Shown here: piece by piece, positions 3,179 through 6,940 of the stretch
Numbering within the stretch: position 1 is the first letter of the stretch
How the letters are laid out: the number at the start of each line of letters is the position of its first letter
NCBI GenBank assembly: GCA_043798775.1
Contig: JAZDOL010000052.1
Coordinates: 1-31,582, forward strand
Direction: 5' to 3'
Length of the DNA stretch: 31,582 nucleotides
From: a bacterium
GTDB taxonomy: Bacteria; Patescibacteriota; Minisyncoccia; Minisyncoccales; GWA2-46-15
The notes under the pieces: generated by a model
Databases searched by the model: none
What the model saw: the letters and a program-made list of their open reading frames with translations, nothing else
What the model was told of the DNA's origin: nothing
Translations under genes and position numbers: made by a program

Positions 3179-3283
3179 GACATATTTTCGGTAGTTATCA
3201 ATGATAACTACCGATACCACAAAGAGCGTTACTAGGACATTTCTATCTTGCCCGCACTAGGACATTATCATATTGCCTCAACA
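3179..3283 (-). mobile_element. Orphan IS1202-family left end, exact 105-bp copy of 1099-1203
   Basis: Base-for-base identity from the terminal ACA through both subterminal repeats and the palindrome to the transposase ATG plus 2 nt. No transposase follows. Confidence 0.93.
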
Positions 3284-3347
3284 ATTTGTCGAGGGGCTTG
3301 CCCCGAGTGGATTCGACGAGCTCACCATTACAACTTTGTCGAAGGAG

Positions 3348-3421
3348 TGGGCGAAAGAGGACTCGAACCTCTGACCTCTTCTGTGTAAGAGAAGCGCTCT
3401 AACCAACTGAGCTACCCGCCC
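3348..3421 (-). tRNA. tRNA-Val(TAC)
   Basis: Minus strand GGGCGGG-TA-GCTC-AGTTGGTTA-GAGC-G-CTTCT-CTTACAC-AGAAG-AGGTC-AGAGG-TTCGAGT-CCTCT-TTCGCCC-A. No encoded CCA. Confidence 0.95.
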
Positions 3422-3460
3422 GTAAGACCCAAGAATCCTTCATGTTACAAAAAATTGTGA

Positions 3461-3500
3461 CAAAAAAGGAAAACGGGCAATATCACGAAGTGATATTGCA
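3461..3500 (-). terminator. Probable intrinsic terminator of the RT gene
   Basis: Perfect 10-bp stem GCAATATCAC/GTGATATTGC (3477-3499) with a 3-nt loop, followed on the minus strand by CCGTTTTCCTTTTTT. Confidence 0.7.
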
Positions 3501-3549
3501 AACCCTAAACCGGAAACAGCCTGCTCCGCGGCATTATATCGTTCCGGCC

Positions 3550-5949
3550 TCAAGTTTTAAGAGCACGCGCCGTTGGCGCGAATCTTGGGTCCGTATTCCC
3601 AATATAGCCGAGAACCCTTCTTCTGGCAATAATTTTTTTTGTGTTTAAAGTAATTCTAACCAGATTAGCCAGGCCGTGATTATTATGCAATTCATCGTTG
3701 GTTAAACGGCGACGATCTCTAAGATGAAATCTTTTATACACGGCGACTCTTATCCTGTCGCATATATAGTCATCGAGTTGGTTAAGGAGGCGGAAATCGT
3801 TAATTCGGGAATAATACCTAATAAATGAATATTGCTGGTTTAAGGCGTATATCAGCCTGTTGATATAATTGATAATCTGGCGAAGGGTTCTTTTCTTATT
3901 TCTTTTTGTCAGTTTAACTATCTTTTTCTTAAATTGGGCAATATTGTATTGGTCAATGGTTATTAGTAATGGCTGGCCATCTTTTTTCTGAAACGAATAG
4001 CCAAGATATTCAACGGAAAAATTTTCATCATTATTTATGTTTGAATACCGTTTTTCATCCCATGCCATATTCAGCTTTTGAAGATAGAGGGCGAATTGGG
4101 TGATAAAGTTTTTATTATTCTTGTCGTAGATTATCAGAAAATCATCGGCAGTTCTTACAAACATTGCCGACAGCGGTTTTATGTAAGAATCGATTAGCGA
4201 CAAATATGTTTCCACGAGAATATTGTTTATCGGTGTACCCCGAGGCAATCCGGCAATGTTTGTTTCTAGAAGACGGTTGAACAAAGAACCGATTATCTGT
4301 TCAATATTACGGTTAACTGACACGCTCTGTAATATTTCCCGAATTATCCGGCGGTCTAGTCGTTCATGAACTCGGCCTAAGTCAATTCGCAGTAAACGAT
4401 AATTGTCTCTATTCTTGTTGAATAATCGCATCAAGCGAATTGCCGAACCAACCTTGCTATATACGCAATCATTTGCCATCAGTAGCTGTGGATATAAAAT
4501 TTTCTTCAAGTACAGATGCGTTGCCCGAAGAGCAATCTTTTCGTTGATGCTGTGGCTTATTATCGGTTTAACAGAGTGTCCGTTTAAATGAGTTTCAGAA
4601 AATGAAATTTGTTTATTTTTCAATAATTCAGACAAACGAATCGAATTCTCTTTTCGATTTACGAAGTACTCTTTCCATAGAGGAGAAGTTGTAGAGGGTC
4701 TAAAATAGTGGATAAAAGATTGTTCCAGCTCTTTGGGTGAAAATAGGCGATCAAAAAAGTTTTTTCTTAAAAGATGGGCCTTCTCCATTCTATGGAATAA
4801 GCAATGCGAGGAGATAAAACCGAAATTATGGAACAAACGATAGGGGGCTTGGCGAATAGCTCTTCCGCTCCACGAACCGGTAATCTTGTGGCGGATGTGG
4901 GAGACTAACCAATCATCGATCTTCGTAAACGGATAATCATTCCCGACTAATACAAAATATTTCATCCGGCTCTTAATTGGGCTTTCGGTTAAAAGATTAT
5001 TAATTTCGTAAAAAAAGAAACTGAATAGGTATCGATTGTCGCCAATACAGTTAAGCGATAACTTGCGGTAGGCTAACTTATTCATTATCGAAAGCAATCG
5101 TCGTTTAATTCTTTTAATCGTTGCTTCCTTGAAATTTATATTGCCATTCTTGAAATAGAAACCGATATAGTCAAAGCCATCTCTTGGCGAAAGTAATTTT
5201 GTCTTTTCTGAAGATAGCGTCAATTCTTGGTCGGATAGCTCTTTAGTAATGGTTCCCATTATCGGTTCGGGATTATTTTTCCCAATAAGAATAATATCGT
5301 CGCCGTACCGATAATAACAAATTGTTTTTTGATTCATATTCCGGTCGAATGGCAGTAAATAAAGGTTTGCTAAATCGTTAACCGGAGAGAGTCCCGTGGG
5401 AAGGCCGGGGCCGGAGAAATTAATCAATCTTTTGATTGTTCTTACGATATTTTTATCTAGGTCGCATTCTTTTCGCGCGTTGTCAACCATTTGCGACATT
5501 TTTTCCTTATTAATTGAGTCGTAGAAGCTTTTAATATCTGCTTTAATCGCCCATTCTCCCAAGCGGTTATCTGAAAAAGCGATTGCCGATCGAATAGCCC
5601 TTAGTATGCCGGCTGGATTATCTTTTTTCTTGCGATAACCGATAACATAGTCCGGCAACATCGGTCCGGTCTTTTCCAATAAGTATTGATGAAGATAAAT
5701 CAGGACCAGTTCGTCTTTCAATGTCGCGCTCTGATAAACAGTGCGATGTTTGCCGTTCTCTTTAGGGACGCGAAAACTTATAAATGGATAAAATTCATAA
5801 TCGCCACTACTTAATGGATCGATAACTTTATCGGTAAGATACTCGTCTTTTAGCGATAAAAAATCTTTGTGGTCGGGAAAAGAAAAAAAACGTTCCGGCT
5901 TGCCGTAAATTGATCTGATTATTCTATGAGCATTATCGATTGTAAGCAT
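3550..5949 (-). CDS. Tandem double reverse transcriptase (RT-RT fusion), group II-like palm and thumb in each half
   Basis: RT1 (aa ~1-395): VPKENGKHR, GYR, ADIKSFYDSI, GLPTG...ANLYL, RYGDD (5307-5296), FDYIGF and a thumb. RT2 (aa ~396-799): LFSPKELEQSF, RIDLGRVHERL, GLPRG...ETYL, RTADD (4152-4141), EYLGY and a thumb with LDDYICDRIR. Confidence 0.92.
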   Translation of the reverse strand: MLTIDNAHRIIRSIYGKPERFFSFPDHKDFLSLKDEYLTDKVIDPLSSGDYEFYPFISFRVPKENGKHRTVYQSATLKDELVLIYLHQYLLEKTGPMLPDYVIGYRKKKDNPAGILRAIRSAIAFSDNRLGEWAIKADIKSFYDSINKEKMSQMVDNARKECDLDKNIVRTIKRLINFSGPGLPTGLSPVNDLANLYLLPFDRNMNQKTICYYRYGDDIILIGKNNPEPIMGTITKELSDQELTLSSEKTKLLSPRDGFDYIGFYFKNGNINFKEATIKRIKRRLLSIMNKLAYRKLSLNCIGDNRYLFSFFFYEINNLLTESPIKSRMKYFVLVGNDYPFTKIDDWLVSHIRHKITGSWSGRAIRQAPYRLFHNFGFISSHCLFHRMEKAHLLRKNFFDRLFSPKELEQSFIHYFRPSTTSPLWKEYFVNRKENSIRLSELLKNKQISFSETHLNGHSVKPIISHSINEKIALRATHLYLKKILYPQLLMANDCVYSKVGSAIRLMRLFNKNRDNYRLLRIDLGRVHERLDRRIIREILQSVSVNRNIEQIIGSLFNRLLETNIAGLPRGTPINNILVETYLSLIDSYIKPLSAMFVRTADDFLIIYDKNNKNFITQFALYLQKLNMAWDEKRYSNINNDENFSVEYLGYSFQKKDGQPLLITIDQYNIAQFKKKIVKLTKRNKKRTLRQIINYINRLIYALNQQYSFIRYYSRINDFRLLNQLDDYICDRIRVAVYKRFHLRDRRRLTNDELHNNHGLANLVRITLNTKKIIARRRVLGYIGNTDPRFAPTARALKT

Positions 5950-5954
5950 AAGAG

Positions 5955-6103
5955 TGTTAGCACTCTAACGCAAGCAAATAGTGGTCTATTACCCGACAAG
6001 CGGACAAGTTCAGGCATCGCGCCCAATTTGCCTGAAAACTTATCGGGCTTTCGATTAAAGGCGCCCCTGAATCGCGCATAGATAAAGGGATAGAGTGCTA
6101 ACA
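5955..6103 (-). ncRNA. Putative RT-associated structured ncRNA (~149 nt)
   Basis: Perfect 13-bp terminal inverted repeat TGTTAGCACTCTA (5955-5967) / TAGAGTGCTAACA (6091-6103). Internal stems CGATT/AATCG, CCCGATAAG/CTTGTCGGG (a G-U pair favours the minus strand), TTCAGGCA/TGCCTGAA and AATAG/CTATT. It ends 5 nt before the RT ATG. Confidence 0.7.
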
Positions 6104-6109
6104 GCTGTT

Positions 6110-6118
6110 ATCATATCA
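6110..6118 (-). promoter_or_regulatory. Extended -10 promoter (TG-A-TATGAT) for the ncRNA-RT unit
   Basis: Minus strand TGATATGAT at 6118-6110. The expected TSS 6-7 nt downstream falls at ~6103-6102, the start of the 13-bp inverted repeat. Confidence 0.55.
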
Positions 6119-6123
6119 CATTG

Positions 6124-6269
6124 ATTATTTGGTATACCTCGCAGTCTCTCGGGTCTGAAACTCGGGATCGATGACTTGCCGCGAGGAACTAAATAATTAG
6201 GATTCCAAAGGAGGTCACTTCTTTGGTTACTCGGCAGGGTTTAATGCCCCGCTGAGCGAAACGCATTAA
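6124..6269 (+). other. Second structured intergenic element of unknown identity
   Basis: Nested stems ATTATTT/AAATAAT, CCTCGC/GCGAGG, AGTC/GACT and TCTCGGGT/ACTCGGGA. Separate hairpins CCAAAGGAG/CTTCTTTGG and TTAATGC/GCATTAA. G-U pairs in the first two hairpins favour the + strand. Confidence 0.45.
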
Positions 6270-6388
6270 AAAATTATAATTTACAATCAATGATTTAAGT
6301 GATAATCTTGGGTTGTAATTATTAGGATTTGTTTTCTTAAATCGAGGCGAAATAGCTGTCAAAACTGTTTCTATAAATCATTTTTCAA

Positions 6389-6940
6389 ATGTATTTTGCC
6401 CACCTTCCAGCGTCATATTTGATGATTAGATTTGTCGAATTATTCGGGATTAGTTTTTCGTTACCGGAAACAGTAATCATTGCTGTTAGTGGAATCGTTC
6501 CGGATTTTGATTTAATACTCGGGTTTATCCGACGCTGTGGCCATCACCGGCTTTTTACTCATACCCCGATGTGGATGGTCGTTATCTGGATGATAATTAT
6601 CGGTCTGTGTGGGATGGCCGGAGTCGAGTTGTCGCTAATGGCGATAATTATGATCCTATTTTCTTTAATACTTCACTTGGTTCTCGACGATCTTGGTTGT
6701 TACTGGTTTCACAGATTAGGCTTACAAAGCGATAATTGTGGGCCACGAATAATATGGTTGTATCCGATACAAAAAATGCCAAACGATGAAAGTGGAGATT
6801 TAAAAATAACCTCTCTTGCAAATTATTGCATTGAATCGCTTCCTATGTATTTTAAAAAATACCCGGCTAATCGTTGGGCGGAAATAATAATTATTCTAAC
6901 GGCAGTCATTGTATTCTTAATATCAAATAATTTATGTTAA
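6389..6940 (+). CDS. Membrane metal-dependent hydrolase (YdjM/DUF457-like)
   Basis: AHLP, PDFD, HHRLFTHT and LHLVLDD motifs with transmembrane segments. Confidence 0.8.
   Translation: MYFAHLPASYLMIRFVELFGISFSLPETVIIAVSGIVPDFDLILGFIRRCGHHRLFTHTPMWMVVIWMIIIGLCGMAGVELSLMAIIMILFSLILHLVLDDLGCYWFHRLGLQSDNCGPRIIWLYPIQKMPNDESGDLKITSLANYCIESLPMYFKKYPANRWAEIIIILTAVIVFLISNNLC

What the first reader, a model, noticed from the sequence alone, without database searches (positions are those of the whole stretch)
4141..4770. The second RT keeps its three aspartates but has a remodelled nucleotide pocket
Seen: RT1 has DIKSFYD, whereas RT2 has DLGRVHE, so the aromatic steric-gate position (D+5) is His. YxDD becomes TADD. 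The fingers hairpin (PKENGKHR in RT1) is shortened to HLNGHSVKP, losing the K/R that normally bind dNTP. RT2 has an RT0-like helix (LFSPKELEQSF) that RT1 appears to lack. Established: the D+5 aromatic residue excludes rNTPs in RTs, and the fingers K/R contact the incoming dNTP. Inference: RT2 is either a structural, catalytically dead partner (like the p51 role in HIV RT) or a specialised polymerase (template-independent, rNTP-using or priming).
Basis: partly seen in the sequence, partly recalled or inferred. Interest (0 to 1): 0.72.

Follow-up and report, generated by a model that had tools for sequence, protein, structure and literature searches.

The report
Second polymerase of a double RT
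The second half of a rare two-in-one reverse transcriptase keeps its catalytic residues but has a rebuilt nucleotide pocket in every known relative, so it is more likely a working, specialised partner polymerase than a dead scaffold.

Summary
The stated residues are real and at the stated coordinates: window 3550-5949(-) encodes a 799-aa protein made of two complete reverse-transcriptase (RT) units. RT2 (residues 394-799) has D523, H528 and T600-A-D602-D603.

I found 10 RT2 sequences from double-RT genes (21-64% identity). RT2 keeps the motif A Asp, the xDD pair, the motif D Lys/Arg and the LGY primer grip in 9-10 of 10. The sugar-gate position (D+5) is never aromatic (0/10, against 48/52 in single-domain relatives). 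The motif B Gln is Arg/Lys in 9/10. The fingers hairpin is shortened.

RT2 keeps the second fingers basic residue (K461; K/R in 10/10). RT1 has the same N-terminal helices as RT2.

RT2 evolves as slowly as RT1 (dN 0.26 against 0.25). It models as a full fingers-palm-thumb RT (Z 27.8 to GsI-IIC RT).

Closest known system: DRT10 (UG17), where two RT copies sit on one pseudo-symmetric ncRNA and one is processive. This protein looks like a single-chain, hard-wired asymmetric version without the SLATT partner.

I favour an active, specialised RT2 (~0.55) over a dead partner (~0.2).

New in passing: a conserved structured element overlaps the RT2 C-terminal codons.

The scan had noted the fusion and the 5' ncRNA on this window only.

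The parts
3550..5949 (-). Double-RT gene (799 aa): RT1 = residues 1-393, RT2 = residues 394-799
   Evidence: both halves hit RT_UG17 best; full-length AlphaFold2 model has pLDDT 88.5 and pTM 0.74
4771..5949 (-). RT1 unit with a canonical pocket: K63, R69, D138, Y143 sugar gate, YGDD 215-218, K249
3553..4770 (-). RT2 unit: complete N-terminal extension, fingers, palm and thumb, with a remodelled pocket
   Evidence: E 3e-24 to UG17; pLDDT 90.3, pTM 0.85; Z 27.8 to GsI-IIC RT, Z 23.3 to DRT9
4564..4590 (-). RT2 fingers segment HLNGHSVKP (454-462). The hairpin is shortened and the first Lys is deleted. K461 (4567-4569) is retained.
   Evidence: K/R in 10/10 RT2 at the column where relatives have R/K in 51/52
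4366..4383 (-). RT2 motif A, D523 to H528 (D+5, sugar-gate position); V527 at D+4
   Evidence: Asp in 9/10; D+5 aromatic in 0/10 RT2 against 48/52 relatives and 7/8 RT1
4237..4251 (-). RT2 motif B, GLPRG (567-571): Arg570 replaces the usual Gln
   Evidence: R/K in 9/10 RT2; no R/K among the residues listed for 52 relatives (Q 29, A 11, T 6, P 3, E 2, I 1)
4141..4152 (-). RT2 motif C, T600-A-D602-D603
   Evidence: DD in 9/10; Tyr/Phe before it in 7/10; Thr only in this genus
3553..3663 (-). RT2 C-terminal helix (763-782) and disordered tail (783-799) carrying Y782, T786, T793 and T799. This is the only free C-terminus of the protein.
   Evidence: helix, then pLDDT below 50; 85% identical to the ortholog; DRT10 primes from a C-terminal Ser/Tyr after such a helix
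5956..6102 (-). 5' structured ncRNA: 12-bp closing stem (6091-6102 with 5956-5967), with a UGCUUGC repeat at 5970-5976 just before the 3' arm
   Evidence: z -4.45; 90% conserved, with one compensatory pair; 12-14-bp closing stems before the start codon in L001, L008, L009 and L010; a weaker 10-nt, 90% stem further upstream in L007
3426..3591 (-). 3' structured element. Its 5' arm lies in RT2 codons about 786-790 and its 3' arm abuts tRNA-Val. It contains the stop codon and a terminator-like hairpin (3477-3499).
   Evidence: 82-98% nucleotide identity against about 65% in the gene; pS 0.195 against 0.74

Best explanation
RT2 is the second, diverged polymerase unit of a single-chain version of a DRT10-type particle (two RTs on one ncRNA).

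Shown:
- It is a complete RT fold.
- It keeps the full catalytic set: motif A Asp, the xDD pair, motif D Lys/Arg, the fingers Lys/Arg and the LGY primer grip.
- It is as constrained as RT1.
- Its nucleotide pocket is rebuilt in the same way in all known double RTs: no aromatic sugar gate, Arg in place of the motif B Gln, and a shortened fingers hairpin in this subgroup.

Inferred:
- RT1 does canonical ncRNA-templated DNA synthesis.
- RT2 binds the other side of the RNA, or a second RNA, as DRT10's second protomer does.
- RT2 is still catalytically active but with altered, probably laxer, sugar and nucleotide selection.
- RT2 is the unit whose free C-terminal helix and tail could supply a protein primer.
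- In homodimeric DRT10 the RNA alone imposes the asymmetry. Here it is written into the protein.
For: Family placement:
- Both halves hit UG17 best.
- In the tree, the RT1 clade (support 97/93), the RT2 clade (100/100) and the true UG17 clade form one unresolved group. The branching order inside the RT1 and RT2 clades is similar, so the fusion is old.

Catalytic residues across 10 RT2 sequences:
- Motif A Asp 9/10 and DD 9/10.
- Motif D K/R 9/10.
- Fingers K/R 10/10.
- LGY glycine 10/10.

Pocket remodelling:
- D+5 aromatic in 0/10, against 48/52 single-domain relatives.
- Motif B R/K in 9/10.

Constraint: dN is 0.26 in RT2 and 0.25 in RT1, with synonymous sites saturated.

Models:
- Full length has pLDDT 88.5 and pTM 0.74.
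- RT2 alone has pLDDT 90.3, and Z 27.8 to GsI-IIC RT over 361 residues.

DRT10 literature:
- The complex is 2 RT : 1 ncRNA.
- Both pockets are competent and one is processive.
- The priming residue lies at the extreme C-terminus after a helix.
- The fingers beta-hairpins form the dimer interface.
- Sources: 10.64898/2026.06.29.735271 and 10.64898/2026.10.08.757509.

ncRNA: a closing-stem RNA lies just upstream of the ORF in most double-RT loci checked, with 12-14-bp stems in five and a weaker stem in L007.
Against: - No biochemistry exists for any double RT.
- In this genus RT2 has extra losses (Tyr to Thr in YxDD, and Val at D+4) that could reduce or abolish activity.
- P0008 lost the RT2 aspartates.
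- The 10 RT2 sequences form only one or two clades. The 0/10 and 9/10 counts therefore reflect few evolutionary events.
- dN/dS could not be measured because dS is saturated.
- Neither half is a true UG17 member (130 and 84 bits, against about 430 for real ones). No SLATT gene is nearby. DRT10 rules may therefore not transfer.
- I could not inspect the active-site geometry of the models.
Confidence: 0.55

Rival explanations
1. RT2 is a catalytically dead pseudo-polymerase. It only scaffolds the RNA and RT1 or stabilises the nascent cDNA, like DRT10's non-productive protomer or HIV p51.
For: - The sugar gate, the first fingers Lys and (in this genus) the YxDD Tyr and the D+4 aromatic are lost.
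- P0008 lacks the RT2 Asp and DD.
- In DRT10 only one pocket holds product, and the other protomer is proposed to stabilise the cDNA. It makes only ~10-nt abortive products.
Against: - The three aspartates, the motif D K/R, the fingers K/R and the primer grip are kept in 9-10 of 10 RT2 at 20-27% identity.
- P0008 is degenerate in RT1 too (YSDN, and motif D Lys lost). It does not show RT2-specific dispensability.
- RT2 dN equals RT1 dN.
Confidence: 0.2
2. RT2 is an active polymerase that incorporates ribonucleotides, acting as an RNA- or mixed-product polymerase or a primer maker, because its sugar gate is gone.
For: - D+5 is His, Asn or Gln in 7/10 RT2 and never aromatic.
- The equivalent MMLV F155V substitution raises NTP incorporation (PMC8857657).
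- A new Arg sits at the motif B position near the sugar.
Against: - D+5 is Leu, Leu and Cys in three members.
- Four of 52 single-domain relatives also have Thr or Ala there.
- D+4 is still aromatic in most RT2 sequences.
- No product data exist.
Confidence: 0.12
3. RT2 makes the second strand. It copies the RT1 cDNA (DNA-templated) to give double-stranded repeat DNA. This would be a fused analogue of the DRT3a/DRT3b division of labour.
For: - DRT3 needs two RTs to make complementary strands (PMC13174585).
- DRT10 cDNA accumulates as first- and second-strand species.
Against: - RT2 is not DRT3b-like. It hits UG17 and Drt3a, no Drt3b/UG8 model is among its listed PADLOC hits, and it has a helical thumb.
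- No evidence on products exists.
Confidence: 0.1

Closest known systems
DRT10 (UG17 RT + ncRNA + SLATT); 10.1101/2025.10.16.682844, 10.64898/2026.06.29.735271, 10.64898/2026.10.08.757509, 10.64898/2026.04.29.721553
   Same: - UG17 is the best profile match for both halves.
- A structured ncRNA with a closing stem lies just upstream.
- Two RT units would sit per particle.
- There is a C-terminal helix followed by a flexible hydroxyl-bearing tail.
- Functional asymmetry between the two polymerase units is expected.
   Different: - The two RTs are fused in one chain and have diverged to 19% identity. In DRT10 the two protomers are identical.
- No SLATT gene is present.
- Profile scores are weak (130 and 84 bits, against about 430).
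- RT2 lacks the aromatic sugar gate that true UG17 RTs have (FY at D+4/D+5).
- RT2 lacks the long fingers hairpin that forms the DRT10 dimer interface.
DRT3 (UG3 Drt3a + UG8 Drt3b + ncRNA), PMC13174585
   Same: - It has two RT active sites, both required, with one ncRNA.
- Drt3a is the second-best profile hit.
- In DRT3 the ncRNA lies 3' of the genes. Here a conserved 3' structured element exists.
   Different: - DRT3 has two separate genes from different classes.
- Drt3b is a thumb-less, alphaRep-bearing, protein-templated enzyme.
- RT2 here is a class-2-like RT with a thumb.
Group II intron RTs (GsI-IIC RT, PDB 6AR1/7K9Y) and DRT9 (PDB 9VMA)
   Same: RT2 shares their fold: Z 27.8 over 361 residues and Z 23.3 over 366 residues.
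   Different: - Those enzymes have Phe/Tyr at the sugar gate and the PQG motif.
- There is no intron, maturase or hexamer context here.
HIV-1 RT p66/p51 heterodimer
   Same: It has two RT-fold units in one enzyme, only one of which is known to polymerise.
   Different: - p51 has the same sequence as p66 and is inactive by conformation.
- Here the units differ in sequence and RT2 keeps its catalytic residues.
- No test of this analogy was possible.

Membership tests
UG17 / DRT10 | RT matches the UG17 profile strongly and over its full length, and falls inside the UG17 clade | tested here: not met
   RT1 scores 130 bits over profile positions 49-323 of 429 and RT2 scores 84 bits. True UG17 proteins score 427-430 bits end to end. 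The tree places RT1 and RT2 beside the UG17 clade, not inside it.
UG17 / DRT10 | Adjacent SLATT effector gene | tested here: not met
   Neighbours are YdjM, ZIP, an HTH protein and a methyltransferase, with no PADLOC defence hit. Other double-RT loci have unrelated housekeeping neighbours.
UG17 / DRT10 | Structured ncRNA with a closing stem and an A-B-A' template loop next to the 3' arm of that stem | tested here: inconclusive
   The fold has z -4.45 and is conserved with one compensatory pair. Closing stems of 12-14 bp occur in L001, L008, L009 and L010, with a weaker one in L007. The UGC(C)UUGC(C) repeat at the expected place in three loci is only a sequence reading.
UG17 / DRT10 | Two RT units per ncRNA | not testable with these tools
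   Two units are in one chain. Stoichiometry with RNA needs a structure or biochemistry.
UG17 / DRT10 | Priming Ser/Tyr at the extreme C-terminus after a conserved helix | tested here: inconclusive
   RT2 has helix 763-782 and then a disordered tail with Y782, T786, T793 and T799. Most relatives end with Ser or Tyr near the terminus. RT1 has no free C-terminus.
DRT3 (Drt3a + Drt3b) | The second RT is UG8 class 1: no thumb, alphaRep domain, protein-templated | tested here: not met
   RT2 hits UG17 and Drt3a, and no Drt3b/UG8 model is among its listed PADLOC hits. It has thumb helices aligned with GsI-IIC RT.
Canonical RT active site (Pfam RVT_1 type) | Motif A Asp, motif C DD and motif D Lys | tested here: met
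   RT2 has D523, D602/D603 and R634 (K633 adjacent). These are conserved in 9/10 RT2 sequences.
Canonical RT active site (Pfam RVT_1 type) | Aromatic sugar gate at D+5 and Gln in motif B | tested here: not met
   RT2 has H528 and R570. Across RT2, D+5 is aromatic in 0/10 and motif B is R/K in 9/10. Relatives have F/Y in 48/52 and Gln as the commonest motif B residue.
HIV p66/p51-type heterodimer | Identical sequence in two conformations, one inactive | tested here: not met
   RT1 and RT2 are 19% identical. Both model as open right-hand RTs.

The most novel reading that the evidence does not exclude
The two units have become two different enzymes on two RNAs. RT1 would copy the 5' ncRNA into DNA. 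RT2, with no sugar gate, a polar D+5 residue and a new motif B Arg, would be a ribonucleotide-tolerant or otherwise re-specified polymerase. RT2 would work with the conserved structured element that overlaps its own C-terminal codons and 3' flank. That would be a single-gene, two-polymerase, two-RNA system with no described counterpart.
Probability: 0.12. Interest if true: 0.85.

Novelty: new variant of a known kind. Interest (0 to 1): 0.62.

Why it matters
DRT10-type enzymes were recently shown to work as two identical RTs on one RNA. In a homodimer the two active sites cannot be mutated separately, so the role of the second, non-processive protomer is open.

A natural single-chain pair with diverged halves makes that question directly testable with single-domain mutants.

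It also shows which pocket features evolution changes once the second unit is freed from being identical to the first: the sugar gate, the motif B Gln and the fingers hairpin.

If RT2 has new sugar or template specificity, it would be a new kind of RT activity in a 2.4-kb gene. The gene comes from an ultra-small genome (785 kb).

Tried and rejected
- Complex prediction of RT1 against RT2 as separate chains gave no verdict (score 0.13, mark 0.32). I do not use it either way.
- The profile search of the 90%-clustered protein set with A1 was swamped by common RTs. It returned no further double RTs.
- The phylum-wide genome search (401 genomes) found only single-domain RTs. Among 60 relatives, only the same-genus genome has the gene.
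- dN/dS could not be computed because synonymous sites are saturated (pS about 0.74). Only dN and amino-acid identity could be compared.
- I considered that RT2 might be the CPR group UG38. I rejected this because UG17 and Drt3a score far better.
- I considered that RT2 might be Drt3b-like. I rejected this.
- Rfam finds nothing in 3200-6400 except tRNA-Val.
- Public runs: one DNA metagenome holds 7% of the words and there are no RNA runs, so I laid no reads.
- Literature searches for RT-RT fusions found none. The DRT10, UG/Abi and myRT papers do not mention any.
Full report
**1. Observation**

The minus-strand ORF 3550-5949 encodes a 799-aa protein, P0001.
- DIKSFYD at 138-144.
- DLGRVHE at 523-529 (D523 = 4381-4383, H528 = 4366-4368).
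- TADD at 600-603 (D602/D603 = 4141-4146).
- HLNGHSVKP at 454-462.
- LFSPKELEQSF at 402-412.

Window 4141-4770 corresponds to residues 394-603.

Pfam sees RVT_1. Both halves, scanned separately, hit the PADLOC profile RT_UG17 best, with Drt3a also among the top hits. The N half scores E 2.5e-38 and the C half 3e-24. The halves align with each other over 330 residues at 19% identity, motif by motif.

**2. Rarity and relatives**

The genome holds 785 kb at 97% completeness. Earlier notes from this scan on similar RTs point to ultra-small Patescibacteria. Only the same-genus genome has an ortholog, P0002 (64% identity). That ortholog lies between the same YdjM/ZIP genes and tRNA-Val.

An exhaustive HMMER search of 1.84 billion representatives found six more proteins of 740-858 aa with two RT units, P0003-P0008. 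Two short 'RT2-like' hits turned out to be pieces of double RTs:
- L011 is a contig that starts inside RT1.
- L010 is a gene broken by a frameshift and an in-frame stop.

That gives 10 RT2 and 8 RT1 sequences. Nothing more appeared in 401 genomes of the phylum.

**3. What is conserved in RT2**

| Feature | RT2 (of 10) | Single-domain relatives (of 52) |
|---|---|---|
| Motif A Asp | 9 | 52 |
| Motif C DD | 9 | at least 50 |
| Motif D Lys/Arg | 9 | 51 |
| Arg before YxDD | 9 | 52 |
| LGY glycine | 10 | 52 |
| Second fingers basic residue (K461 here) | 10 | 51 |

The only member lacking the aspartates, P0008, also has YSDN and no motif D Lys in RT1. It looks degenerate as a whole.

RT2-specific changes are systematic:
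- D+5 is H, H, N, L, N, Q, L, C, N, Q, so never aromatic. It is F/Y in 48 of 52 relatives and in 7 of 8 RT1.
- The motif B Gln position is Arg/Lys in 9 of 10. No Arg or Lys is among the residues listed for the relatives.
- The Asn of LAN is Glu in 6 of 10.
- The first fingers Lys with its hairpin tip is deleted in 7 of 10.
- This genus adds Thr for the YxDD Tyr and Val at D+4.

These counts come from one or two clades, so they reflect few events.

H528 is the homolog of the published sugar gate. RT1 Y143 aligns with F146 of the E. rectale intron RT. F146 and MMLV F155 are the 'sugar gate', and F155V raises NTP use (PMC8857657).

**4. Constraint and fold**

Between the two orthologs, synonymous sites are saturated. 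Non-synonymous divergence is equal: dN 0.25 in RT1 and 0.26 in RT2, with identity 65% and 64%.

The full-length model is confident (pLDDT 88.5, pTM 0.74).
- RT1 has a fingers hairpin (57-62 / 68-73). RT2 has none.
- Both units have four N-terminal helices, so RT1 does not lack the 'RT0-like' helix.

RT2 modelled alone has pLDDT 90.3. It superposes on GsI-IIC RT at Z 27.8 over 361 residues, from the N-terminal extension through the thumb, and on DRT9 at Z 23.3.

RT2 ends in a long helix (763-782) and a disordered tail with Tyr and Thr residues.

**5. Phylogeny**

For P0001, P0002, P0003, P0006, L010 and L011, the RT2s form one clade with 100/100 support. The RT1s form another (97/93), which also contains the RT1 of P0005. 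The branching order within the two clades is similar. Both are joined in an unresolved trichotomy with true UG17 RTs (E about 1e-128 to the profile). The fusion therefore predates the divergence of this group.

P0004, P0007 and P0008 lie nearer UG26-like RTs. The architecture may have arisen twice, or the deep nodes are simply unresolved.

**6. Comparison with the literature**

DRT10 (UG17) is an RT + ncRNA + SLATT defence system that makes protein-primed tandem-repeat DNA. Two 2026 preprints show a 2 RT: 1 ncRNA particle.
- Both pockets are competent. Only the one facing an A-B-A' loop is processive, and the other makes ~10-nt abortive products (10.64898/2026.06.29.735271).
- Only one pocket holds product. 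The other protomer is proposed to stabilise the cDNA. The two long fingers beta-hairpins interlock as the dimer interface (10.64898/2026.10.08.757509).
- The priming Ser/Tyr must sit at the extreme C-terminus behind a conserved helix.

The double RT reads naturally as a covalent version of this pair. The shortened RT2 hairpin can then reflect a changed dimer interface as much as changed dNTP binding. Only RT2 has the free C-terminal helix and tail.

Defining DRT10 features are not met. There is no SLATT nearby, and other double-RT loci have unrelated neighbours. Profile scores are weak. I therefore do not file this as a DRT10 member, only as working like one.

DRT3 uses two RTs, but its second RT belongs to a different, thumb-less class, which RT2 does not.

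I found no paper describing an RT-RT fusion.

**7. RNAs**

The 5' ncRNA (about 5956-6102) folds well (z -4.45). It is about 90% conserved while the gene is about 65%.

Closing stems of 12-14 bp just before the start codon recur in L001, L008, L009 and L010, with a weaker stem further upstream in L007. A UGC(C)UUGC(C) repeat lies next to the 3' arm in three loci. That is the position of the DRT10 template.

Unexpectedly, the last ~29 codons of RT2, the 125-nt spacer and tRNA-Val are the most conserved stretch of the locus. Identity is 82-98%, and pS is 0.195 against 0.74 elsewhere.

That stretch folds into a multi-hairpin element closed by a stem whose 5' arm lies in the RT2 tail codons. The same layout recurs in all five independent loci: an arm inside the last 10-25 codons, with its partner 117-157 nt downstream. 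At control ORF ends, perfect stems of 8 nt or more occur in about 14 of 71 cases. Stems of 9 nt or more occur in none apart from the RT genes.

There is no covariation support. In this window the element contains a terminator-like hairpin and abuts a tRNA, so it may be regulatory.

**8. Verdict**

The evidence favours an active, subfunctionalised RT2 (about 0.55) over a dead scaffold (about 0.2). rNTP use and second-strand synthesis are minor, untested sub-readings. This is a new variant of a known kind.

Noticed in passing
window 3426-3591 (-), extending to tRNA-Val at 3347-3421; also L007:8370-8519, L008:8556-8699, L009:8475-8665, L011:1284-1422: A conserved structured element overlaps the last RT2 codons and the 3' flank. 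Identity with the ortholog is 82-98% where the gene is about 65%. A long-range closing stem has its 5' arm inside the ORF in all five independent double-RT loci. It could be a second RNA partner or a regulatory 3' structure.
   Followed up: partly
window 5970-5976 (-); L001 about 1980-1990; L008 about 5965-5977: A direct repeat UGC(C)UUGC(C) lies in the single-stranded stretch just 5' of the 3' arm of the 5' ncRNA closing stem. This is the place where DRT10 carries its A-B-A' template. It would predict a short (4-5 nt) repeat cDNA.
   Followed up: partly
L010:543-2910 and L010:2885-3469; L007:3719-4300: One double-RT gene is broken into three ORFs: a frameshift between motifs B and C of RT1, and an in-frame stop in the linker. 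It is followed directly by a CYTH-domain gene. Another double-RT locus has a CYTH gene 1.7 kb upstream.
   Followed up: no
P0008 (812 aa): This double RT has degenerate catalytic motifs in both units: YSDN and no motif D Lys in RT1, and Ala for the motif A Asp and no DD in RT2. It may be a decaying or non-enzymatic copy.
   Followed up: no
tree: Double RTs fall into two groups. One lies beside UG17 (this window, P0003, P0006, L010, L011). The other lies nearer UG26-like RTs (P0004, P0007, P0008). The RT-RT architecture may have arisen twice.
   Followed up: partly
single-domain relatives P0021, P0024, P0052, P0064: A small clade of single-domain UG17/UG26-like RTs also has Thr or Ala at the sugar-gate position. 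Loss of the aromatic gate is therefore not unique to RT2.
   Followed up: no
genomes: About a quarter of sampled genomes of this phylum (96 of 401) carry single-domain RTs of about 330-400 aa that match the double-RT profile at E below 1e-20. RTs are common in these tiny genomes.
   Followed up: no
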